From: a virus
Taxonomy: Duplodnaviria; Caudoviricetes
Strand: one strand, 5' to 3'
Length of the DNA: 37,671 nucleotides
IMG/VR virus record: IMGVR_UViG_3300019762_000017
Coordinates: 1-37,671 of that record
The notes under the pieces were generated by a model. It saw nothing but the letters and a program-made list of their open reading frames with translations. It searched no databases and had not been told where the DNA came from. Position numbers and translations under genes: made by a program. Positions 1-35,042 of this stretch are shown one piece after another (position 1 is the first letter of the stretch; every line of letters begins with the position of its first letter).

Positions 1-681
1 ATGGACGAGTTTCAAGTTGTTGAGCGAACGATATCAGGAGAGGCAAATCTACCTGTTAGCCTGCTAAGAAATCCGCAAGGAGTTGATGACTCATCACTAA
101 CAAGAATGATCTCATCTGCAGGCAATTTGAAAGGTAAAAACTTTCACATATTAGATCAAGCTGGTTTATCTGTTAATGACATTGTATCCATAGCAACGCG
201 ACATAAACATAAATACCCTGATACTGCAGTAATTGCGATTGATTACCTTGGGCTTATGACCATAAGTAAAAACGAGCGACACGACATTGCAATGGGCGAT
301 GTATCACGACGACTCAAGCAGCTAGCCAAAGAGCTAAAGACTCCAGTTGTTTTATTACTGCAGTTAGTCTCTAAGTCAATTGATGCTAGACCTATCACTG
401 ACAGAAAGCCTAGAGCTAGTGATATTAAAGACTCATCACGAATTCAGGATGACTGTGATTGGATTATCTTTCCATACCGTCACAAAGTTTATGATGATAA
501 CGCACACGATTACGCTGAGATTGTTCTAGGTAAGGCGCGTCACGGTGTTCAAGGTGCAATTGCATATCAAGAATTCAAGAACGGACATTTCATTGATTGT
601 GATCAATCTTATGCATTTGGAGCAATCGAACATTACATGAAAGAACAACAACCAAAACAACCAAAAAAGCGCGACATTTAA
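1..681 (+). CDS. dnaB: DnaB-like replicative helicase, C-terminal part
   Basis: IAIDYLGLM (Walker B), LKQLAKELKTPVVLLLQL, SDIKDSSRIQDDCD, AEIVLGKARHG motifs. Confidence 0.93.
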   Translation: MDEFQVVERTISGEANLPVSLLRNPQGVDDSSLTRMISSAGNLKGKNFHILDQAGLSVNDIVSIATRHKHKYPDTAVIAIDYLGLMTISKNERHDIAMGDVSRRLKQLAKELKTPVVLLLQLVSKSIDARPITDRKPRASDIKDSSRIQDDCDWIIFPYRHKVYDDNAHDYAEIVLGKARHGVQGAIAYQEFKNGHFIDCDQSYAFGAIEHYMKEQQPKQPKKRDI

Positions 682-699
682 CCCGTAGGAGCAATAGAG

Positions 700-879
700 A
701 TGAGTAAACCAAAATACAAACTAGAGCGCAGTAAATACCCAGGAACTGAAATGGAATGCGATGATTGTGCACTACTTCACTGCGCTCCATGCCCAAAAAC
801 TAGCGACGGACGACTCGTTTGCGGTCAGTTACTTCCGAATTTAGATACTATTTTCGTACAAGTCAAAGAGGGTGAGTGA
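700..879 (+). CDS. Small Cys-rich hypothetical protein (59 aa)
   Basis: Read by hand; AGGAG RBS; CDDC..C..C..C; stop overlaps next start. Confidence 0.65.
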   Translation: MSKPKYKLERSKYPGTEMECDDCALLHCAPCPKTSDGRLVCGQLLPNLDTIFVQVKEGE

Positions 880-1040
880 TGATTTACGCAGTGGAGATTA
901 AACTTTGGTGTGGAAAGCAATATGTAGAGCTGGATGAGCCTGTTGATACGATCGAGGAGGCCGAGAGGCTTGCTATTGATGTGATAAAGCAGTCCATAAG
1001 CTCGGCAGAAGTAGCGCAAACCTATCGCACTGGTGAGTAA
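879..1040 (+). CDS. Small hypothetical protein (53 aa)
   Basis: Read by hand, MIYAVEIKLW...; TGATG coupling; fills gap before ninB. Confidence 0.6.
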   Translation: MIYAVEIKLWCGKQYVELDEPVDTIEEAERLAIDVIKQSISSAEVAQTYRTGE

Positions 1041-1042
1041 AA

Positions 1043-1498
1043 ATGACAACTCACATAGCAACTAAACAAAACATAAACACTGAACTCGAATCAATATGTA
1101 TTGAGATTGATGCGATACATTTGACCGGTAAAAACGCTAGAGTGATTGTTGAATCAGACGAGAAGCGAACTCTATCCGCTAATGCCCAGGCTCATATCTG
1201 GGCCAAAGCAATCAGCAGTCATACCGGTGAAGATGTTAAGACTACATTCAACCGGTTGAAAAGGGACCATGCGTTACCAATCCTATTAGCAGACTTAACT
1301 CATGGACCGGTCGCAGACTTCATACTCAAGAAAACCGGTTTCGAATCGATGACCGATGACCAACAACTTAAAATTATCGATGCGATGTCAGTAACAAGAC
1401 TGTTCACCACCAAGCAACACAATTCATTTAGAGATTCAGTTCAAACGTACTGGAATCACGAAGGGCTTAACTTAGATTATTTGATGGGGAAATCATGA
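1043..1498 (+). CDS. ninB: NinB/Orf-family recombination protein
   Basis: KRTLSANAQAHIWAKAIS and SVTRLFTTKQ motifs; position after helicase. Confidence 0.75.
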   Translation: MTTHIATKQNINTELESICIEIDAIHLTGKNARVIVESDEKRTLSANAQAHIWAKAISSHTGEDVKTTFNRLKRDHALPILLADLTHGPVADFILKKTGFESMTDDQQLKIIDAMSVTRLFTTKQHNSFRDSVQTYWNHEGLNLDYLMGKS

Positions 1499-2130
1499 GT
1501 AATTCAAAGCGCAAATGCACTGGATGTAAAAAACGATTCCCACAAGAGGGAATGCTACCGTCACCTGTAGGATTCTTCTGTGATATTGATTGCCGCCTAG
1601 AATACGCTACAAAGAACTCTAAGAAATTAGCGGCTATTGGGTCGAAGATTCGAAGTAAAGCCAACAGGGCTGATTTGACGGCCTTTAATCGCAAAGATAT
1701 AGGGTGGCAACACAAACAAACACAGAAAAGATTTAATCGATTGCGAGTGTTGCAAGAAATTAAGTGGTTCCGCGATAACAATCAGCCGCCAACTTGTATC
1801 AGTTGTGGTAAAGAAAATATGGACTGGTGCTGTGGTCACTTCAAGACGGTAGGCGCTCAAGGTGCTTTAAGGTATGACGAGCTAAATACTTACCTTCAAT
1901 GTAATCGCTATTGCAATATGGGGCTAAGCGGAAACATCAGCGGCAACAAATCAACACGAGGCTATATCAAAGGACTTCACGAGCGGTTTGGTGAGGAAAA
2001 AGCCACTGAGATAATCGATTACTGTGAGTCTAATTCAGCATCAAGAAAGTGGACTTGTGACGAGGTGGAGGCAATACGAAAAGAAGCAAATGCAATGATA
2101 AGGAAGCTAGAAAGTGAGCTTGGGCTGTAA
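1495..2130 (+). CDS. ninG: NinG/Rap-family endonuclease
   Basis: N-terminal CxxC..FC..C; CISCG, CGHFKTVGA, LRYDELN..QCN.YCN. Confidence 0.88.
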   Translation: MSNSKRKCTGCKKRFPQEGMLPSPVGFFCDIDCRLEYATKNSKKLAAIGSKIRSKANRADLTAFNRKDIGWQHKQTQKRFNRLRVLQEIKWFRDNNQPPTCISCGKENMDWCCGHFKTVGAQGALRYDELNTYLQCNRYCNMGLSGNISGNKSTRGYIKGLHERFGEEKATEIIDYCESNSASRKWTCDEVEAIRKEANAMIRKLESELGL

Positions 2131-2232
2131 TCGCTTTATTGCATTAAATGAAAATAAACCATCGATTTAATTCGTTTTACTAGATTATGTCGATGGATAA
2201 TAATTAAACCTAATCTGAAGGAGTGAGAAGTT

Positions 2233-2460
2233 ATGAGTAATTTAAAAATAGCAGCAAGCCCATTAACTGGAAAAATTTACGCAGGAACATTAATAAGAAA
2301 TGGCTCTATGTGGGGTAAGAATAAAACTGATGTGACTATGGATTGTCTGATTGCCACTATTGAGCATTGCTTGAAGTTTGGCAATACAGTTCAGATATCA
2401 AAGCCTGATGGGACTGTTGAGTTTGAGATTGACGTTAAAGATTTTCGGGTGAAGAAATGA
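2233..2460 (+). CDS. Phage hypothetical protein
   Basis: AAGGAGTGAG RBS; SPLTGKIYAG...KTDVT pattern typical of small phage early proteins. Confidence 0.7.
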   Translation: MSNLKIAASPLTGKIYAGTLIRNGSMWGKNKTDVTMDCLIATIEHCLKFGNTVQISKPDGTVEFEIDVKDFRVKK

Positions 2461-2633
2461 CACTAATAAATAAAATACTAGCAGAGATAGAAAGCAAGCT
2501 CGGCGGCGTGTCTAACATGCAGTTTATGGACATGGTCACAGCATCACCATCACTTAAGCAAGCTATCAAAGATGAACAAGAATCTATCAGTCAGCTAGAG
2601 ACTAAAGCTAAATATGACATGGAGTGCGGATAA
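2457..2633 (+). CDS. Hypothetical protein (58 aa)
   Basis: Read by hand; ATGA overlap upstream, TAATG overlap downstream. Confidence 0.55.
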   Translation: MTLINKILAEIESKLGGVSNMQFMDMVTASPSLKQAIKDEQESISQLETKAKYDMECG

Positions 2634-2749
2634 TGAAAATAGCAGCAGTAGTAATACTAATAATAGCCGCACTTTATTTTGAGAGTGCAGAGCAAGAATG
2701 CTTAGATTTGGGTAACTCAGTTAATGAGTGTGCGCAGTTATCAATGTAA
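2633..2749 (+). CDS. Small membrane/secreted peptide (38 aa)
   Basis: MKIAAVVILIIAALYF hydrophobic N-terminus; translational coupling. Confidence 0.5.
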   Translation: MKIAAVVILIIAALYFESAEQECLDLGNSVNECAQLSM

Positions 2750-2759
2750 GGGGTGAGAG

Positions 2760-3827
2760 ATGAAAAAAGTAGTGAGCTTTAGCGGTGGAAGAACAAGCGC
2801 TTATTTGTGTTATTTGATGAAAGAGAAATACGGTGATGAAGTGGATTTTATTTACATGGACACAGGCGCAGAGCATGAAAAAACATATGAGTTCATTAGA
2901 AAGGTTAATGATGAATTTGGGCTTAATCTTACTTGCTTGCGTACCGATTTTTCTAGCCCTCTTGGTGCTGGTAATGGCTTTACAGTGGTTGACATTAATT
3001 CCATCAGTCCTGATTTGAAGCCATTTAGTGAAATGATATACAAGTATGGAGTACCTTACATTGGCGGCATGTTTTGCACTGACAGAATGAAGCTCGTTCC
3101 GTTTAATAAATACTGCAAGGAAAAGTACCCGAAAACATTTTGGTGTGACGGAATTCAAAAGCAGGGCGGGACTCCTGCTGGCAATATGTTCGAAGAGGCT
3201 GGGTATGAAACATGGCTAGGAATTCGAGCAGACGAGCCGAAAAGGGTCTTCGGTAAAAAGCTATACGGCAAATTAAAGTCCACGCTAGGCCTTAGTGATT
3301 CCGATTTAATTGATATGTACAGCACTAACCATATTGATATGGAGAAGTTTTTTGTTATGGAGGAACCGTCTGAGTGCGCGCTTTTTAATGAGGTATGCAG
3401 GAGGAAAAGAGCAGGCATCCGCTACATGGCTGAGATATCAGATTACGATAAGCAAGATGTTTTGGATTTTTGGTCTAATCAGGATTTCGATTTAGATTTA
3501 CCTGAACATCTGGGTAATTGCGTTTTTTGCCCCAAGAAGTCAGATCTAAAATTAGCAGCAGCGCAAAGAGATGAGTCAGATTTCTACCATGAATTTCTAA
3601 CTATGCTTTATTCGCCATCCGTTCGTGTAGATGACAAAACGGGTCACTATTCGAAAATGTACCGAGGAAAGCAATCACTTGAAAGTCTGATAGCTAAATT
3701 CGACGGATCAACGGGTGAAGAAATAAAAGCAAGAATACGTGGTGGTAAAATGGAGGCTTCCGGCTCGTGTTCAGAATCATGCGAAGTGTTTGCATGTGAA
3801 GCCAATCAAGTGGATATGTTTAAATAA
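2760..3827 (+). CDS. PAPS-reductase-family (PP-loop) protein with probable Fe-S cluster
   Basis: VVSFSGGRTS PP-loop, MDTGAEH, FCTDRMK, GIRADE, GNCVFCPKK, GSCSESCE. Confidence 0.85.
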   Translation: MKKVVSFSGGRTSAYLCYLMKEKYGDEVDFIYMDTGAEHEKTYEFIRKVNDEFGLNLTCLRTDFSSPLGAGNGFTVVDINSISPDLKPFSEMIYKYGVPYIGGMFCTDRMKLVPFNKYCKEKYPKTFWCDGIQKQGGTPAGNMFEEAGYETWLGIRADEPKRVFGKKLYGKLKSTLGLSDSDLIDMYSTNHIDMEKFFVMEEPSECALFNEVCRRKRAGIRYMAEISDYDKQDVLDFWSNQDFDLDLPEHLGNCVFCPKKSDLKLAAAQRDESDFYHEFLTMLYSPSVRVDDKTGHYSKMYRGKQSLESLIAKFDGSTGEEIKARIRGGKMEASGSCSESCEVFACEANQVDMFK

Positions 3828-3901
3828 AAAAATACCGCCAGGAGTGAGACTGGCGGCATAAACTCGGAGTAGAGATGATGGTTAGAAATGAGAAACCAAC
3901 A
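3826..3901 (-). ncRNA. Putative ~75-nt antisense sRNA (paQ-like position)
   Basis: Minus-strand TTGAGC-N17-TATAGT (3936-3908) upstream; intrinsic terminator stem 3832-3859 with U-tract on the minus strand. Confidence 0.5.
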
Positions 3902-4297
3902 AAAGTGACTATACAGACTAAAGCTGAAATGCTCAAGTTGTCAACTGGAATTAGCAGTAAAGCAAAAGTTGCAAGGGCGATAATATGCAGCGAAGAAATG
4001 GTGTCTTATTCGGATATCGCTAGGGTGCTGGGCATTGAGCTGGATGCGGTTGTGTGCGCAGTTAGAGATTTAAGGGGAAAGTGTTACGTCACATTTGAAG
4101 TGAAAAGAGTTGACGGAGTAAATTATTACAAAATCAAAAAGGTCATGAGAAAGATTCAAACTTGGCCAAATAGTCGAGTTATTAAATCGAGAAAAATTGC
4201 AGAGAACAACAGAATATCTAAAAGAATGAAATCGCTTGATTTATCTAGAAGATTGAAATCAGATAATATGACACTAATTGATTCGGTATTTTGTTAG
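3875..4297 (+). CDS. Basic winged-HTH protein in the lambda Q position, possible late regulator
   Basis: SYSDIARVLGIELDAVVCAVRDLR followed by beta hairpin; GGAG RBS; last gene of the early rightward operon. Confidence 0.5.
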   Translation: MMVRNEKPTKVTIQTKAEMLKLSTGISSKAKVARAIICSEEMVSYSDIARVLGIELDAVVCAVRDLRGKCYVTFEVKRVDGVNYYKIKKVMRKIQTWPNSRVIKSRKIAENNRISKRMKSLDLSRRLKSDNMTLIDSVFC

Positions 4298-4315
4298 CCT
4301 TCCGTGGCGTAGGGT

Positions 4316-4681
4316 TTACTTTTTAAGCCTATTAACTACGCCCTCAACCGCTCCGCCGCCGAAGTAAAACGCAAGTATAACAATAAACGCGCTACCCATG
4401 TCGCCATTTAGAAAAGTCATGATTGCTGTTAAATCCAACTCCTTCACCATGAATACGTCAGCAATATAAATTAAACCAGTTAGAAACCACAATGCAACGT
4501 ATGGAATGCTGACGACCAACATTAACCAGCGTTGTGCAATTTTGTACGGTTCGTATAATTTTAGAAAGGTCATCTTGGCGTTAGACTTTTCTTCATCAGT
4601 GAATACCATTGCATCAATACCGCTGATACCTGCATCAATGACTTTATCACTACCGAATATCTTACCTAAAAATCCAAACAT
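4316..4681 (-). CDS. Holin-like membrane protein (resembles 3TM/GTA-holin type)
   Basis: Start MFGFLGKIFG; FTDEEK motif; two TM helices ending AFYFGG; directly after endolysin. Confidence 0.65.
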   Translation of the reverse strand: MFGFLGKIFGSDKVIDAGISGIDAMVFTDEEKSNAKMTFLKLYEPYKIAQRWLMLVVSIPYVALWFLTGLIYIADVFMVKELDLTAIMTFLNGDMGSAFIVILAFYFGGGAVEGVVNRLKK

Positions 4682-4682
4682 T

Positions 4683-5042
4683 TTATTTTCTCCACTTATT
4701 GCCAGTTCGCGTGTCAACATGAACAAACGTTTCATACAATCCAAATCCGTATTGATTCGGCCATGTCATATCTAAATATTCAAATACTTCCTGGGGTGTT
4801 ACGTTTTTAACTACGATGTCACAAGCGCGGCCCTGCAAGTGATAAGACCGACTGGCACCACCAACAGCTTTGTTATGCTCATAGCAGCGACATGCTGAAT
4901 TAATAGTTACAGGCTCATTGAATCGCTCACGAACTGCCGTGATGACCATTAGAGTTTCTGGATCGACTGTATCAAAATTGCATTGAGGATTGCTGCATTG
5001 ACATTTAAATTCACTACGTTTAAAGAATGGTGAGAGCTGCAT
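4683..5042 (-). CDS. Endolysin, peptidase M15 family
   Basis: FKRSEFKC, INSACRC..HN..VGGA..SYHL.G.ACDI, FVHVDTR. Confidence 0.9.
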   Translation of the reverse strand: MQLSPFFKRSEFKCQCSNPQCNFDTVDPETLMVITAVRERFNEPVTINSACRCYEHNKAVGGASRSYHLQGRACDIVVKNVTPQEVFEYLDMTWPNQYGFGLYETFVHVDTRTGNKWRK

Positions 5043-5072
5043 AATTAATATCTCATTGTTTGCGGAGTATGA

Positions 5073-5081
5073 ATTATAACA
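5073..5081 (-). promoter_or_regulatory. Extended -10 promoter for the lysis cassette
   Basis: TGTTATAAT on minus strand about 30 nt before the endolysin ATG, downstream of a terminator. Confidence 0.6.
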
Positions 5082-5160
5082 TATACTGAGTGTAGGTTTA
5101 CCAAGTAGGCGGTGGTCAAAGAAAATATAAGGTGATGTTTGTTTGGATGGCAGGCATTAG

Positions 5161-5191
5161 AAAGCCCGGTATAATTTCGCACTGGGCTTTT
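5161..5191. terminator. Intrinsic terminator, possibly bidirectional
   Basis: AAAGCCCGGT-N10-ACTGGGCTTTT just after the stop of 5202..5570. Confidence 0.65.
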
Positions 5192-5201
5192 GTTTGGGTG
5201 G

Positions 5202-5570
5202 TTATAGGCTGCCATCTCCCATGTGACTGGTTTCAAATCCATGTGAGTAATATCCATTATGAGAGTTATAGAGATGAAGGTAAAGATCATCACTCCCATC
5301 TTTCGTTAGTCTAAAGCAGACCTGCCCTCCATCATCAAGATCGTCACTATCTACGCCTACACAATAGCTAACATCAAAAACATATCCATCCGTGACGAAT
5401 TCATCATTGGTGTTTCCGTCGCATCTGTACTGCTCATTTTTATCCTCTGATATGAAGTACCCAGCATCCTCACAGCAGCACTGACAAGTATCGTATCCTA
5501 CGAAAACGTCATTTTCATCAACAAAGTTTACCTTTGAATCCCATCCACTTTCTTTATCTGTAATAATCAC
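5202..5570 (-). CDS. Acidic hypothetical protein
   Basis: QCCCE and YNSHNGYYSHG motifs seen in phage hypotheticals; AAGGAG RBS, GTG start. Confidence 0.7.
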   Translation of the reverse strand: MIITDKESGWDSKVNFVDENDVFVGYDTCQCCCEDAGYFISEDKNEQYRCDGNTNDEFVTDGYVFDVSYCVGVDSDDLDDGGQVCFRLTKDGSDDLYLHLYNSHNGYYSHGFETSHMGDGSL

Positions 5571-5686
5571 AACTCATACTCCTTCTTAATTAGTCTTTCT
5601 TCAATTCTACGCCTAGCAGCCTGACGGCGCTTTAACTGCTTATGTTGTTCATGGTCTTTCTGTTTGCCGCGAGTTCGTGAACACAT
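5567..5686 (-). CDS. Small Arg-rich protein (39 aa)
   Basis: Read by hand, MCSRTRGKQKDHEQHKQLKRRQAARRRIEERLIKKEYEL; GTGA coupling. Confidence 0.55.
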   Translation of the reverse strand: MCSRTRGKQKDHEQHKQLKRRQAARRRIEERLIKKEYEL

Positions 5687-5715
5687 ATCTATCACTCTAT
5701 AGGTTAATGGGGTGG

Positions 5716-5901
5716 TTAGAGGCTATTCAAGTCATCAATTACGGGGTGGCCAACTTCGTACGAGTTAACCGTGCGCAACTCCATTTTATTGAAATCGTAA
5801 ACCTTTACCGTGTCGTCACTATTCACGTCTATCTGTATCGCTATGAATGATGACTCACCTTCAGGGTAGACGTTAATTACTGGTTTTATTGAATTGCTCA
5901 T
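5716..5901 (-). CDS. Hypothetical protein
   Basis: ACGGAG RBS; first gene after the leftward promoter. Confidence 0.6.
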   Translation of the reverse strand: MSNSIKPVINVYPEGESSFIAIQIDVNSDDTVKVYDFNKMELRTVNSYEVGHPVIDDLNSL

Positions 5902-5932
5902 ATTCTTCTTACTCCGTTGTTAGTGTGATTTA

Positions 5933-6014
5933 AATGTACCATATAATGGGTGGGTGTCAATATAATATATAAATATAATTAATGTATTGACTCTGTGCGT
6001 GAGTGGGTTATTAT
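5933..6014. promoter_or_regulatory. Divergent sigma70 promoters
   Basis: Minus TTGACA(5960-5955)-N16-TACATT with TG extension; plus TTGACT(5987)-N16-TATTAT; AT-rich centre. Confidence 0.65.
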
Positions 6015-6035
6015 TAATGAAATTCAGGAGGTAAT

Positions 6036-6236
6036 ATGCAAGAGAAGAAAAGCTTTAAGCAAGCGACGCTGTGGGTATCAACTCACGATAAAATTGAAGT
6101 ACTGATGGAGCATTATCAGTCGCAGCAAGATAAAGAGTTTGGCGATAAAGCTAAGAAGATATCGAAAGCCGCATTGATAGATAGCCTTGTCGCTATGAAG
6201 CTGCATGAAGTGACAATGGAAATTGAAGGTAAATAA
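6036..6236 (+). CDS. Small DNA-binding protein, ribbon-helix-helix-like
   Basis: FKQATLWVSTHDKIEVL...KISKAALIDSLV pattern; AGGAGG RBS. Confidence 0.55.
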   Translation: MQEKKSFKQATLWVSTHDKIEVLMEHYQSQQDKEFGDKAKKISKAALIDSLVAMKLHEVTMEIEGK

Positions 6237-6249
6237 CGGAGATAACGAG

Positions 6250-6876
6250 ATGAACACTGACAACATAGCAGTAACACAGCAAGAAGAGGAAGAGTTTAGC
6301 GCAATGAGCAAGGTTGAGCCAAAAAATGGTGAGTGGTGGCTGTGTGACGTGAAGAAAGATGGTCGACAAGCGCTGTACCTTGGAGCTAATGGTTGGATTT
6401 ATTCCAAATCAAGTGATGACATTATCGACAATGCAAGCCCAATATCACGCCTTTACACACAGGAAGAGTATGACAACAAGCCTGTTAGCCCTGTCGATGA
6501 TTCAGAGTGGAAGAATGGGATTCCTCCTGTTGGTGCTGAGTGTGTTTATCGACACAAAAATCAGCCGCATAATCCGTGGCTTTACCAGTTTGACGGGGTG
6601 CTTTGTGATTGCGTAGCTCATGTTGGAGACCTGTCAGTATTGGTTGCAAAAGACCTTTCATTCTCCACTGCCTGCAATGACTTATGGATTGAAAAGCCCG
6701 AATCCAAAGAAGACAAGGAAGCGCGTGAGCGAATGGAGTCTGCGTATGATTTGTATGCATCATGGGTTGGTGATGCGGTTGGTGCGCTTCCATTTAACTT
6801 TACCGAATTCAGCTCGGATGGCGCGATTGTCCGTAAGTGGCTTCGAGTTTTAGACAAAACAGGCTATCGCAAATGA
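6250..6876 (+). CDS. Phage hypothetical protein
   Basis: ACGGAG RBS before ATG 6250; W..GIPPVG.EC motif common in phage proteins. Confidence 0.7.
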   Translation: MNTDNIAVTQQEEEEFSAMSKVEPKNGEWWLCDVKKDGRQALYLGANGWIYSKSSDDIIDNASPISRLYTQEEYDNKPVSPVDDSEWKNGIPPVGAECVYRHKNQPHNPWLYQFDGVLCDCVAHVGDLSVLVAKDLSFSTACNDLWIEKPESKEDKEARERMESAYDLYASWVGDAVGALPFNFTEFSSDGAIVRKWLRVLDKTGYRK

Positions 6877-6965
6877 AATACTCAAACATAGAGGCTAACT
6901 TGAGTATTGCTGTATTCATTGGATTGATGGGTTTTCTATCATGGATAGCATTAAGCGGTTACTAG
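6873..6965 (+). CDS. Small single-TM peptide (30 aa)
   Basis: ATGA overlap; hydrophobic core. Confidence 0.45.
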   Translation: MKYSNIEANLSIAVFIGLMGFLSWIALSGY

Positions 6966-7031
6966 TAGCATTGTTTATTATCGCGATGTTTGTTGCAGCG
7001 CACTCATATTACGGATTGGAGAGTTTTTAAG

Positions 7032-7571
7032 ATGGTTAATTTAATTGAGTTACAAAACAAAATACACGCACAAAATAAAGAGCTTGGATGGTGGGATGAA
7101 GAACGTCCGTTCAGCACATTCGTATGCCTGTTTCATTCGGAGCTGTCAGAGGCGATGGAAGGTGATCGCAAAGGGCTGATGGATGACCACTTACCAGAAT
7201 ACCCGATGTTTCAAGTTGAGCTGGCTGATTTTGTTATACGGGTTTTGGATTACTTGGGCAGCAAGGGCTTTATTCATTACCAAGATATTTATTTCGATGA
7301 TGATGATATGGAAAATCAAAATGAGATAGAGTTGATTGCTCGACTTCATACTGGCGTGTCCATGTGCTTTCAGGATTATATTGATAGAAATAAAATGGTA
7401 GATCATGAGGCAAAGGATGGTCTGGCGTCATGCGTAGAGGCTGCATTTGCATTCTCTAGCTATAACAATATCAATTTACACAAAATCATTCTTGAAAAAG
7501 TAGAATACAACAAACATCGAGCTGACCATAAGCGCGAAAATCGCGCAATGGCTGGCGGCAAGAAATATTAA
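7032..7571 (+). CDS. MazG-like nucleotide pyrophosphohydrolase
   Basis: GWW, HSELSEAMEG, VELADFVIRVLD, EKVEYNKHR; GGAG RBS before ATG 7032. Confidence 0.85.
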   Translation: MVNLIELQNKIHAQNKELGWWDEERPFSTFVCLFHSELSEAMEGDRKGLMDDHLPEYPMFQVELADFVIRVLDYLGSKGFIHYQDIYFDDDDMENQNEIELIARLHTGVSMCFQDYIDRNKMVDHEAKDGLASCVEAAFAFSSYNNINLHKIILEKVEYNKHRADHKRENRAMAGGKKY

Positions 7572-7660
7572 GGATTGCGCATGTACAAACTAAAAGTAAT
7601 GACTGAACCAATGGGGTTTGATGATTTTTGCGAGTGGATTGATGAGATGGGGGGAGAGTG

Positions 7661-7813
7661 ATGGGTCGTAGAGAGTTATTTGAGTTATGGGTTTCCCGTC
7701 AGTACGGCGTCACAACATTACTGGAAGGATTTAGCGATACTGATGGATATCCAGATATGACAATAAACGCTATGTGGGCGGGGTTTAACGCAGGAATTGA
7801 GTTATCTCAATAA
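7661..7813 (+). CDS. Hypothetical protein (50 aa)
   Basis: RELFELW...Y.D..INAMWAGF pattern typical of small phage proteins. Confidence 0.55.
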   Translation: MGRRELFELWVSRQYGVTTLLEGFSDTDGYPDMTINAMWAGFNAGIELSQ

Positions 7814-7883
7814 CCACAGCAACATGCATAAGCGGTGAGCAACCAAGTGAGCCGCTTAATTCAAAGAAGTAAGACAGTAGTGT

Positions 7884-7892
7884 TGGTATAAT
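7884..7892 (+). promoter_or_regulatory. Extended -10 promoter at the start of the late operon
   Basis: TGGTATAAT, no clear -35, after hairpin TAAGCGG...CCGCTTA. Confidence 0.55.
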
Positions 7893-7916
7893 TGAGTCAC
7901 AATTAAGTAAGGAGTA

Positions 7917-8153
7917 TTGAAGATGATTGAATTACTTTTAATGTTTTCAGTAGTGATTTTGTCGGTAGCGGTGGCAGCAATTATTTATATTGTTAACTTC
8001 ACTCGAACAAGAGACATTGAAGTTATCGACTCACCGAATGAGGCGCAAAAACTCATTAACAACAAGTTCACTGAAGCCGCGCGACGAGTGATAGAAGAGC
8101 GAAAAAGAGCAGGGGAATCCAATGGACTTTCTGATGATAGAAAACATAGTTGA
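7917..8153 (+). CDS. Single-TM membrane protein
   Basis: TAAGGAG RBS; N-terminal hydrophobic helix; start may be ATG 7923. Confidence 0.65.
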   Translation: MKMIELLLMFSVVILSVAVAAIIYIVNFTRTRDIEVIDSPNEAQKLINNKFTEAARRVIEERKRAGESNGLSDDRKHS

Positions 8154-30589: not shown

Positions 30590-30770
30590 ATTCAACCTCT
30601 TCTCTATTCCACATAACTTTACGAAACCAGCTACACCAACCATTAACATCATGAAGCATGTATCCGCGATCTACTTCTGGTATGTTTTTGCTAAGTACAT
30701 TATCAGCGTGGTCTTTTGCCTTTTCCTCACTGCTGAACTTGCAATAAACAGTTTCTAATTTAAACGCCAT
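30573..30770 (-). CDS. Hypothetical protein
   Basis: GGAGTGAG RBS; first gene of the leftward operon. Confidence 0.55.
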   Translation of the reverse strand: MAFKLETVYCKFSSEEKAKDHADNVLSKNIPEVDRGYMLHDVNGWCSWFRKVMWNREEVEYEDED

Positions 30771-30801
30771 TTCACTCACTCCAATTGCGTAACGTGAATC
30801 T

Positions 30802-31079: not shown

Positions 31080-31498
31080 GTTACATATACGTTGCTGAGT
31101 CAGGAGATGGGTACATCAAGATAGGCAAAACAAACTCTCCAGCAGAAAGAAAGGCGACAATACAGTCAGGTATGGGGATATCTATAACTAAATTTCGAGC
31201 GTTTGAGTGTGAAGGTGACTCTTTAGTTTCGGAGAAGGAAGCGCATAGACTTCTTTCCAGTCTGTCCTTATTTGGAGAATGGTTTGCTTGCAAGTTTGAT
31301 GACGCTGTAAACATATGCAGATACGTATCAAAAAATCCAGATCTTATAAGCGACACTGATGAAGTAAAAATTAATCTAGGCGTTCCAGAGTCTTTATCTA
31401 AAGACTTAAAGGAAATCGCAAAAGGGAAGGGTATGAAGTTTCACGCCTTTTTAAATCAAGAGTTAACGAAAGTAGCTAACAGAGGTAAAAAGGGGTGA
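31076..31498 (+). CDS. GIY-YIG (T5orf172/MUG113-like) domain plus C-terminal RHH
   Basis: YIYV....YIKIGKT..PAER, EKEAH, GEWF; INLGVPESLSKDLKEIA tail. Confidence 0.8.
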   Translation: MSYIYVAESGDGYIKIGKTNSPAERKATIQSGMGISITKFRAFECEGDSLVSEKEAHRLLSSLSLFGEWFACKFDDAVNICRYVSKNPDLISDTDEVKINLGVPESLSKDLKEIAKGKGMKFHAFLNQELTKVANRGKKG

Positions 31499-31501
31499 GT
31501 G

Positions 31502-34579: not shown

Positions 34580-34863
34580 CAATACACACTACAGCAGCCA
34601 AGTTTCACGCAGCTAACGACATCGACGGCATGAGAATAGCAACTGAAGCCCGTCGAAAGTTTGGACACAACGCCTGGATGTGCGCAATCGTTGAATGTAG
34701 AAACAAGCCTAAGCCCACTGTAAAGCCCGTAGAGGAGATTAAGCCCGAGCCGACACAAACAGACACACGTAAGATAGATATGCGAGCTGAGCCAGTCCAG
34801 AGCGGTAGAACAGCATCAGGGACACTAACTAAGAAAAGTAATCTTGATATAACTAATATGTAG
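34576..34863 (+). CDS. Hypothetical protein
   Basis: ATGA coupling to rha. Confidence 0.6.
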   Translation: MTIHTTAAKFHAANDIDGMRIATEARRKFGHNAWMCAIVECRNKPKPTVKPVEEIKPEPTQTDTRKIDMRAEPVQSGRTASGTLTKKSNLDITNM

Positions 34864-34874
34864 GAGTGAGTGAG

Positions 34875-35042
34875 ATGAGTAATTCAATTCAAGTTAAGAA
34901 AGAAGTAGAAATGGAGATACAGGTAGATCACATTAAGTGCCAAGATTGTCATGACGAGCTTGATTTTGAAATGACATGTGATAGCTACGGTGATATCCAA
35001 ATCGCAGTAGAGAGATGCAAGTGTGAAGATAGCCAACAATAA
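34875..35042 (+). CDS. Small putative Zn-binding protein (55 aa)
   Basis: Read by hand; AGGAGTGAG RBS; CQDC...CKC. Confidence 0.6.
   Translation: MSNSIQVKKEVEMEIQVDHIKCQDCHDELDFEMTCDSYGDIQIAVERCKCEDSQQ

What the first reader, a model, noticed from the sequence alone, without database searches (positions are those of the whole stretch)
3826..3944. Candidate phage sRNA carrying several anti-Shine-Dalgarno segments, antisense to the Q-position gene
Seen: minus-strand TTGAGC-N17-TATAGT (3936-3908), with an alternative TTGACA-N18-TAGTCT. About 75 nt downstream is a hairpin whose stem extends by a G.U pair only on the minus strand (A.C on plus) and is followed by a U-tract only on the minus strand. 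The RNA covers the RBS and start of 3875..4297. Its loop region is complementary to AGGAGTGAGA at the RBS of 2233 (10 nt), AGGAGTGAG at 34875 (9 nt) and GGAGTGAG at 30770 (8 nt). Its body matches CGGAGTAGA at the exonuclease RBS and TAGAGATGA at the start of the gene at 700. Known: lambda paQ RNA silences Q in cis. Inference: one sRNA that delays the late regulator in cis and may repress several early genes in trans. Caveat: RBSs resemble each other anyway. Alternative: the two plus-strand GGA motifs are CsrA sites.
Basis: partly seen in the sequence, partly recalled or inferred. Interest (0 to 1): 0.75.

Follow-up and report, generated by a model that had tools for sequence, protein, structure and literature searches.

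The report
Lysis-operon terminator with anti-RBS loop
A strong hairpin in this uncultured Vibrio-like phage likely ends the leftward lysis-gene message, whose tail would then run antisense across a neighbouring DNA-binding gene; its loop mirrors a ribosome-binding tag of several early genes far better than chance, but one related phage has the loop flipped, so a separate multi-target small RNA is possible rather than shown.

Summary
The sequence features are real. Hairpin 3832-3859 plus U-tract is the strongest minus-strand terminator-like site in the genome. The proposed internal promoter (9/12) is at chance level (18 found, 22.5 expected). Gene 3875..4297 is a winged-helix protein, not Q.

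A conserved perfect extended -10 (5081) precedes the leftward endolysin cassette, and no comparable terminator lies between it and this hairpin. In a related phage (G003) the homologous hairpin directly ends a leftward lysis/head operon, with its 8-nt loop inverted. A 99%-identical strain (L012) lacks the U-tract.

The loop/RBS match is still not chance: 10 of 65,536 loops do as well. The tag sits at 6 of 31 non-structural and 0 of 25 structural or lysis starts. The whole 76-nt RNA scores only at the median of antisense controls.

Verdict: a lysis-operon terminator predicted to create an excludon-like antisense overlap with the wHTH gene (about 55%). A sar-like sRNA is about 20%, and trans silencing by the loop about 25% (not exclusive). 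No RNA data were available.

The parts
3832..3859 (-). Intrinsic-terminator-type hairpin (10 bp with one G.U, 8-nt loop)
   Evidence: strongest of 5 minus-strand sites genome-wide, -16.7 kcal/mol
3826..3832 (-). U7 tract, minus strand only
   Evidence: same in L001/L002; absent in L012
3840..3849 (-). Loop (3849-3842) plus 2 stem bases, complementary to the RBS tag AGGAGTGAGA
   Evidence: loop inverted in G003/L048
3908..3936 (-). Promoter-like TTGAGC-N17-TATAGT inside the wHTH gene (unproven; would give a ~76-nt RNA, 3901-3826)
   Evidence: chance level; hexamers unchanged in L001/L002 while 5 of 17 spacer bases differ
3875..4297 (+). Winged-helix DNA-binding protein, 140 aa (start 3875 or 3878, RBS GGAG at 3866); not a Q homolog
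4316..4681 (-). Membrane protein (phrog_9646), last gene of the leftward lysis cassette; holin-like role is inference
4683..5042 (-). Endolysin, peptidase M15
5073..5081 (-). Perfect extended -10 (TG-N-TATAAT) upstream of the endolysin; predicted lysis promoter
   Evidence: kept in L001, L002, L012, and in L001 inside a 76-nt patch ahead of a different endolysin
5933..5960 (-). Upstream leftward sigma70-like promoter TTGACA-N16-TACATT
   Evidence: same in L001 and L002
2219..2228 (+). RBS tag AGGAGTGAGA of gene 2233 (DUF7446); precedes different genes in relatives
2749..2758 (+).
31491..31499 (+).
34862..34870 (+). RBS tag AGGAGTGAG of gene 34875
30775..30782 (-). RBS tag GGAGTGAG of gene 30770; shares a longer duplicated joint with the 34862 tag

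Best explanation
The hairpin and U-tract at 3859-3826 likely form the intrinsic terminator of the leftward lysis transcript, and because the oppositely oriented winged-helix gene lies between the lysis genes and this hairpin, the message's tail would run about 470 nt antisense across that whole gene and its ribosome-binding site. Shown by sequence: the hairpin and its polarity, the gene layout, the conserved extended -10 at 5081, and the homologous hairpin directly behind a leftward lysis/portal/head operon in G003. Inferred: transcription from 5081 (and 5960), read-through to 3826, and damping of the wHTH mRNA by duplex formation or polymerase collision once lysis genes turn on (an excludon-like feedback, if the wHTH is a late regulator). 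On this reading the loop's likeness to the early RBS tag is a remnant of a shared gene-joint sequence and is not needed for the terminator's job.
For: Strongest minus-strand terminator-like site of 5 genome-wide. Downstream of 5081 the loose scan found only one weak, bulged candidate (-7.1 at 4416) before it.

The extended -10 is kept in 3 of 3 related loci that contain the region (L001, L002, L012).

In G003 a leftward operon (membrane gene 82% identical to G001's lysis-cassette gene, then a 502-aa gene, then head morphogenesis) stops a few bases before the homologous hairpin. The available 5.9-kb G003 fragment has no wHTH gene. There the flanks match L001 in register but the loop is the reverse complement.

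In L001/L002 a rightward terminator with plus-strand U-tract closes the wHTH gene, so the gene is bracketed by opposite terminators.

Identity over the hairpin adjoins a 98%-identical patch. Similar patches run 26-46 nt into other coding starts. L012's junction lies in register with the 10-nt tag, so the tag acts as a recombination joint.
Against: No RNA evidence. The loop/tag match is far above chance (10 of 65,536) and this reading explains it only by shared ancestry. All 12 of 12 synonymous codons in the first 14 are identical to L001, against 51 of 95 later (P about 6e-4). The peptide MVRNEKPT is invariant in homologs only 31-34% identical and ends at the predicted +1, which fits a short internal RNA. 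The rightward hairpin at about 4296-4320 is weak in the window itself (-2.4 to -4.8). L012 lacks the U-tract yet keeps the lysis cassette, so the terminator is dispensable in at least one strain. Rho-dependent termination upstream was not testable.
Confidence: 0.55

Rival explanations
1. The loop is a trans-acting anti-RBS seed. Whichever RNA carries it (a 76-nt sRNA, or a processed 3' piece of the lysis mRNA) would pair with the GG[A/G]GUGAG tag of non-structural genes and damp their translation as a group. Not exclusive with the best explanation.
For: Profile 10/9/8 nt against the phage's own RBS windows is reached by 10 of 65,536 loops; against two unrelated Vibrio phages the same loop scores 7/0/0 and 0/0/0. 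Of 105 terminator-like hairpins in 7 sequences only this one has three matches of 8 nt or more; the identical G001 copy gives 10/9/7. The ten best partners of the 10-mer are all non-structural genes. The tag is at 6 of 31 non-structural and 0 of 25 structural or lysis starts, p=0.023. Tag frequency is 5/69, 2/35 and 2/9 in the three phages with the hairpin, against 1/228 in four cultured Vibrio phage sequences. The 8 loop bases are open (0.0 kcal). Terminator loops can matter in sRNA regulation (PMC11979758, abstract).
Against: G003 carries two perfect tags in 5.9 kb yet has the loop inverted, so its terminated RNA shows the tag itself and not its complement. L012 has no U-tract. No covariation could be tested because all copies are identical or inverted. 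The whole RNA is average among 33 antisense-to-RBS controls: 18 hits against a median of 22, with 20 of 33 as high. The 16S anti-SD also prefers early starts (p=0.003). Two tags share a duplicated joint. One unrelated hairpin had a single 12-nt RBS match. The phages are close kin, so tag and loop co-occurrence is not independent evidence.
Confidence: 0.25
2. A P22 sar-like cis-antisense sRNA of about 76 nt (3901-3826) is made from the promoter inside the wHTH gene and blocks that gene's translation.
For: The geometry fits. Both hexamers are unchanged in L001/L002 while 5 spacer bases differ. Synonymous identity is 12 of 12 over codons 1-14. MVRNEKPT is invariant in 5 of 5 aligned homologs and is predicted disordered. 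The cis duplex is the best of 71 windows (-24.1).
Against: A 9/12 promoter is chance level. Only 1-2 hexamer positions are free of coding constraint. The conserved block adjoins a recent exchange patch and has parallels at other gene starts. P0012 has a different N-terminus on the same protein. No DNA was obtainable for the distant homologs.
Confidence: 0.2
3. The block is mainly a recombination joint between gene modules. The hairpin is an inherited terminator whose antisense consequences are unselected.
For: At least three different upstream contexts join at this block (window, L001/L002, L012), with a possible fourth contig in run X7. The U-tract is lost in L012 and the loop is flipped in G003. 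A Sak4-like annealase is encoded.
Against: The hairpin is intact and strong in the window and G001/G002. The polarity-defining G.U and U-tract survive even in G003.
Confidence: 0.15
4. The two plus-strand GGA motifs are CsrA sites that gate wHTH translation.
For: Two GGA motifs lie 26 nt apart upstream of 3875, one of them the SD. A cultured Vibrio phage carries an annotated CsrA homolog.
Against: The first GGA is partly in a strong stem. Neither motif has the ANGGA context (consensus recalled). Every GGAG SD has a GGA. No CsrA family hit among 61 ORFs. The G003 inversion removes the motif from that strand.
Confidence: 0.04

Closest known systems
Convergent excludon / non-contiguous operon (PMC12288877 and PMC11034616, passages read)
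   Same: The 3' part of one transcript would overlap an oppositely transcribed gene, with the terminator lying beyond it. Such overlaps are described in E. coli, S. aureus and phage 80alpha.
   Different: Overlap here is predicted, not measured. It would cover a whole gene and its RBS. No co-transcribed gene follows, so it is not a non-contiguous operon in the strict sense.
P22 sar RNA and lambda aQ (paQ) RNA (PMC12197685, passages read)
   Same: Antisense RNA over the start of a phage regulatory gene.
   Different: The target is a winged-helix protein, not Ant or Q. No CII, CI or integrase family hit among 61 ORFs. The internal promoter is unproven.
OppZ and CarZ, 3'-UTR-derived sRNAs of Vibrio cholerae (PMC7398697, abstract and section list read)
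   Same: A mechanism by which an operon's 3' end could become a base-pairing regulator in a Vibrio host.
   Different: Those pair with their own transcripts and are shown by RNase E mapping. Here the best partners are on other transcripts and no processing is shown.
Hairpin-loop small inversions (PMC2939885, passages read; described for chloroplasts)
   Same: A loop between short inverted repeats found in both orientations in relatives.
   Different: Seen here in a phage terminator, from one contig.

Membership tests
Intrinsic terminator | GC-rich hairpin directly followed by a U-tract | tested here: met
Intrinsic terminator | Lies downstream of a same-strand transcription unit | tested here: met
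   leftward lysis genes end at 4316 with a conserved extended -10 at 5081; directly after a stop codon in G003
Intrinsic terminator | RNA 3' ends map to the U-tract | not testable with these tools
   no RNA holder listed
Convergent excludon | Opposed transcripts with the terminator inside or beyond the opposite unit | tested here: met
   layout in window, L001, L002; the rightward terminator is weak in the window
Convergent excludon | Measured overlap and mutually exclusive expression | not testable with these tools
   no transcript data
lambda paQ/aQ system | Target is a Q-family antiterminator | tested here: not met
   no PHROG or Pfam Q hit; fold is a winged helix
lambda paQ/aQ system | CII-activated promoter (TTGC-N6-TTGC around -35; motif recalled) | tested here: not met
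   motif absent; no CII hit
P22 sar-type cis-antisense sRNA | Short RNA spanning the target RBS and ending at a terminator | tested here: inconclusive
   geometry fits; promoter at chance level
Trans-acting anti-SD loop sRNA | Exposed loop complementary to several RBSs beyond chance | tested here: met
Trans-acting anti-SD loop sRNA | Seed conserved in polarity, or covarying with targets | tested here: not met
   inverted in G003; U-tract lost in L012; no divergent copy found to test covariation
Any Rfam family | Score at the gathering threshold | tested here: not met
   0 matches in the whole window

The most novel reading that the evidence does not exclude
The 3' end of the lysis message, or a 76-nt RNA co-terminal with it, is a late-to-early off switch. 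It silences the winged-helix regulator in cis and, through one terminator loop, a set of non-structural genes (PAPS-reductase-like, Sak4 annealase, DUF7446 and two small genes) that carry a lineage-specific RBS tag. The tag travels with the gene joint, so newly swapped-in genes inherit the control, and a single loop inversion (G003) switches the circuit off.
Probability: 0.22. Interest if true: 0.72.

Novelty: new member of a known kind. Interest (0 to 1): 0.38.

Why it matters
On the likely reading this is an ordinary terminator in a slightly unusual layout, giving a testable excludon-like link between lysis timing and a phage DNA-binding protein.

If the loop acts in trans, it would be a phage RNA that addresses its own early genes through a shared RBS tag, a mechanism for the early-to-late switch. 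One search for this theme returned no phage paper. Two broader searches returned reviews of single-target or host-targeting phage sRNAs; I saw listings, plus passages of one review. Natural variants (loop inverted, U-tract lost) supply ready-made controls.

Tried and rejected
RNA and family searches: Rfam found nothing. Sequencing runs: no RNA holder listed, which is not evidence either way.

Searches for relatives of the element or gene: blastn of 3815-3960 against phages gave only chance hits. tblastn of the wHTH, of P0004 and of the 32-aa ORF against cultured phages found none or chance hits. Genome collection: no wHTH relative; 21 stem-pattern hits, none with this loop. RBS-start pattern in viral contigs: 17 of 19 hits unrelated. 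L018 is a chance match inside a GC-rich gene. The 2110-2240 patch has no cultured match. Endolysin relatives L158-L161 were fetched but not analysed.

Stem pattern: 137 loci, 85 contexts, 37 different loops, so the stem alone is generic and is not evidence of homology.

Left out as non-independent: L011 (same length as the window) and L003, L004, L009, L010, L013, L014, L019, L020 (same contigs as L001/L002).

DNA for P0004-P0006 and P0012 could not be obtained, so covariation is untested. My first idea of a strong G.U-only rightward terminator at about 4300 was dropped for the window. The Q/paQ and CsrA readings were rejected as above. A literature search for terminator loop inversion in bacteria returned nothing or chloroplast papers only.

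Full report
Context. The window is a complete 37.7-kb virus record with podovirus-type structural genes. Its nearest cultured portal is from Vibrio phage 1.182.O (74%), and its PAPS-reductase-like gene matches mostly Vibrio phages, so a Vibrio-like host is inferred. Of 61 ORFs scanned, none hit Q, CII, CI or an integrase (ORFs under 50 aa were not scanned). The layout near the finding is: rightward dnaB, ninB, ninG, small genes, PAPS reductase-like 2760..3827, then gene 3875..4297, which converges with a leftward cassette ending in an M15 endolysin (4683..5042) and a membrane protein (ending at 4316).

Observation. The hairpin folds at -16.7 kcal/mol on the minus strand (z -5.6, 0 of 200 shuffles as good) and -14.7 on plus; the G.U extension and the U7 tract are minus-only. 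It is the strongest of 5 minus-strand terminator-like sites in the genome. The promoter is a 9/12 match; 18 such sites occur in 1-8000 against 22.5 expected. Rfam has no match.

The gene. 3875..4297 has no PHROG hit and a sub-threshold HTH hit. Atlas neighbours are unnamed regulators and CaiF/GrlA or DUF977 clusters at 0.88-0.91, which are leads only. The model (pLDDT 72, residues 1-10 disordered) matches winged-helix proteins such as TFE-alpha, PerR and ArsR types at E 2e-4 to 1e-2. It is a winged-helix protein, not Q. A late-regulator role is inference from position only.

Relatives. Two viral contigs (L001, L002; 81-82% protein identity) keep the A-tract, hairpin, loop and first 44 coding bases unchanged, with a small indel between hairpin and SD. 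All 12 of 12 synonymous codons in the first 14 are identical, against 51 of 95 from codon 16 on (P about 6e-4). However, this block is contiguous in L001 with a 98%-identical patch (window 2455-2749), and similar patches run 46 nt and 26 nt into the genes at 6250 and 700, so recent exchange can explain it. Three distant homologs (31-34%) keep MVRNEKPT, which ends at the predicted +1, while P0012 has another N-terminus. No DNA was available for these four.

Two natural variants matter. L012, 99% identical on both sides, lacks the A-tract and outer stem; there the loop and right arm are the coding tail of a 32-aa ORF. A contig in run X4 shows the same junction (it may be the same sample). G003 (L017/L048/L183) shares nin-region modules with the window at 92-93%. 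It has the same flanks as L001 in register, but the 8-nt loop is the exact reverse complement and the stem has one mismatch. There the hairpin lies a few bases after the stop of a leftward operon: a membrane gene 82% identical to G001's lysis-cassette gene, a 502-aa gene and head morphogenesis. The 5.9-kb fragment has no wHTH gene. This is one contig and was not checked on reads. The stem pattern alone is generic (137 loci, 37 loops), so homology rests on the flanks, the loop and the neighbourhood.

Source of the antisense RNA. A perfect extended -10 at 5081 precedes the endolysin and is kept in L001, L002 and L012; in L001 it precedes a different endolysin. An upstream leftward promoter at 5960 is also shared. 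Between 5081 and the hairpin the loose scan found one weak candidate (-7.1) and the stricter scan none. In L001/L002 a rightward terminator closes the wHTH gene; in the window it is weak. The simplest reading is that the lysis mRNA ends at 3826, with about 470 nt antisense to the wHTH gene and its RBS. This is inferred, not measured.

Trans targets: against. With opening energies, the 76-nt RNA has 18 of 70 non-cis hits at -8 or better, against 10 of 69 and 8 of 60 in two cultured phages. Antisense windows over 33 other RBSs of this phage do as well: median 22, with 20 of 33 at least as high; at -10, 13 against a median of 9, with 12 of 33 as high; the top-five mean equals the median. So the body matches are ordinary.

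Trans targets: for. Only 10 of 65,536 possible loops reach the 10/9/8 profile, 220 reach a best match of 10, and 40 have three matches of 8 or more. Of 105 terminator-like hairpins in 7 sequences, only this one has three matches of 8 or more; its G001 copy gives 10/9/7, and one unrelated hairpin had a single 12-nt match. Allowing G.U adds 2760 and 31502. The ten best partners are non-structural genes, and the tag occurs at 6 of 31 non-structural and 0 of 25 structural or lysis starts (p=0.023). The 16S tail (motif recalled) shows the same trend more weakly, p=0.003 against 5e-5 (starts and classes chosen by hand, one late start mis-set). The tag is at 5/69, 2/35 and 2/9 RBSs in the three phages with the hairpin and 1/228 in four cultured Vibrio phage sequences, two of them partial. 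The match is therefore real and lineage-specific. It could be selected pairing, or ancestry: the tag is the usual sequence after a stop codon at gene joints here, it precedes different genes in relatives, and L012's junction is in register with it. G003 has two perfect tags and the inverted loop, which counts against a required pairing, though its copy may be a decayed derivative.

Comparison. The layout works like a convergent excludon (PMC12288877, PMC11034616; passages read). The short-RNA version would work like P22 sar (PMC12197685; passages read). It is not a member of the paQ/Q system. A 3'-derived version would resemble OppZ/CarZ (PMC7398697; abstract and section list). PMC11979758 (abstract and section list) shows that terminator loops can matter, there likely without base-pairing. 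Loop inversions between short repeats are described in chloroplasts (PMC2939885; passages). No supplements were consulted. Earlier scan notes describe similar anti-RBS loops in other phages, several claiming covariation. They are unchecked and I did not test them; they raised my prior for the trans reading from under 10% to about 25% and prompted.

Verdict. A real terminator, most likely of the lysis transcript, with a predicted antisense overlap (0.55). A sar-like sRNA 0.2; trans action of the loop 0.25 (not exclusive); unselected joint 0.15; CsrA 0.04. New member of a known kind; interest 0.38.

Noticed in passing
L048:1204-1230 (G003) versus window 3832-3859: Exact inversion of an 8-nt terminator loop between related phages, with the stem polarity and U-tract kept.
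   Followed up: yes
L012:1425-1523: In a 99%-identical strain the hairpin's loop and right arm are the coding tail of a 32-aa ORF; in G003 the same ORF stops at 25 aa and is followed by the RBS tag.
   Followed up: partly
window 667-725, 842-882, 2119-2236, 5039-5114, 5920-5991, 6230-6295, 6974-7034: Short 84-97% identical patches shared with L001/L002 at gene joints and promoters, often ahead of different genes; likely module-exchange joints.
   Followed up: partly
window 7884-7892 (+) and 5081-5073 (-): Two perfect extended -10 elements without a clear -35, ahead of the structural block and of the lysis cassette; candidate late promoters, possibly targets of the wHTH protein.
   Followed up: no
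window 5933-6014: Back-to-back sigma70-like promoters in an AT-rich spacer, kept in L001 and L002, next to a 66-aa gene at 6036 without a family hit.
   Followed up: no
window 34862-34877 (+) and 30782-30768 (-): Two small genes on opposite strands share a near-identical 15-nt RBS-start joint.
   Followed up: partly
window 3875-3901 and 4274-4294: Both ends of the wHTH protein (MVRNEKPT and LIDSVFC) are identical in homologs only 31-34% alike overall; one of three distant homologs lacks the C-terminal motif.
   Followed up: partly
whole window: No integrase or CI-type repressor hit among 61 ORFs, although an Ant/Rha-type protein (33920) and several small DNA-binding-like ORFs are present.
   Followed up: no
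L186:23899-24192 (Vibrio phage 1.013.O): Annotated phage-encoded carbon storage regulator (CsrA) next to a winged-helix gene.
   Followed up: no
L185, minus-strand hairpin near 1255 (Vibrio phage 1.030.O): Terminator-like hairpin with a 12-nt antisense match to one of the phage's own RBS windows.
   Followed up: no
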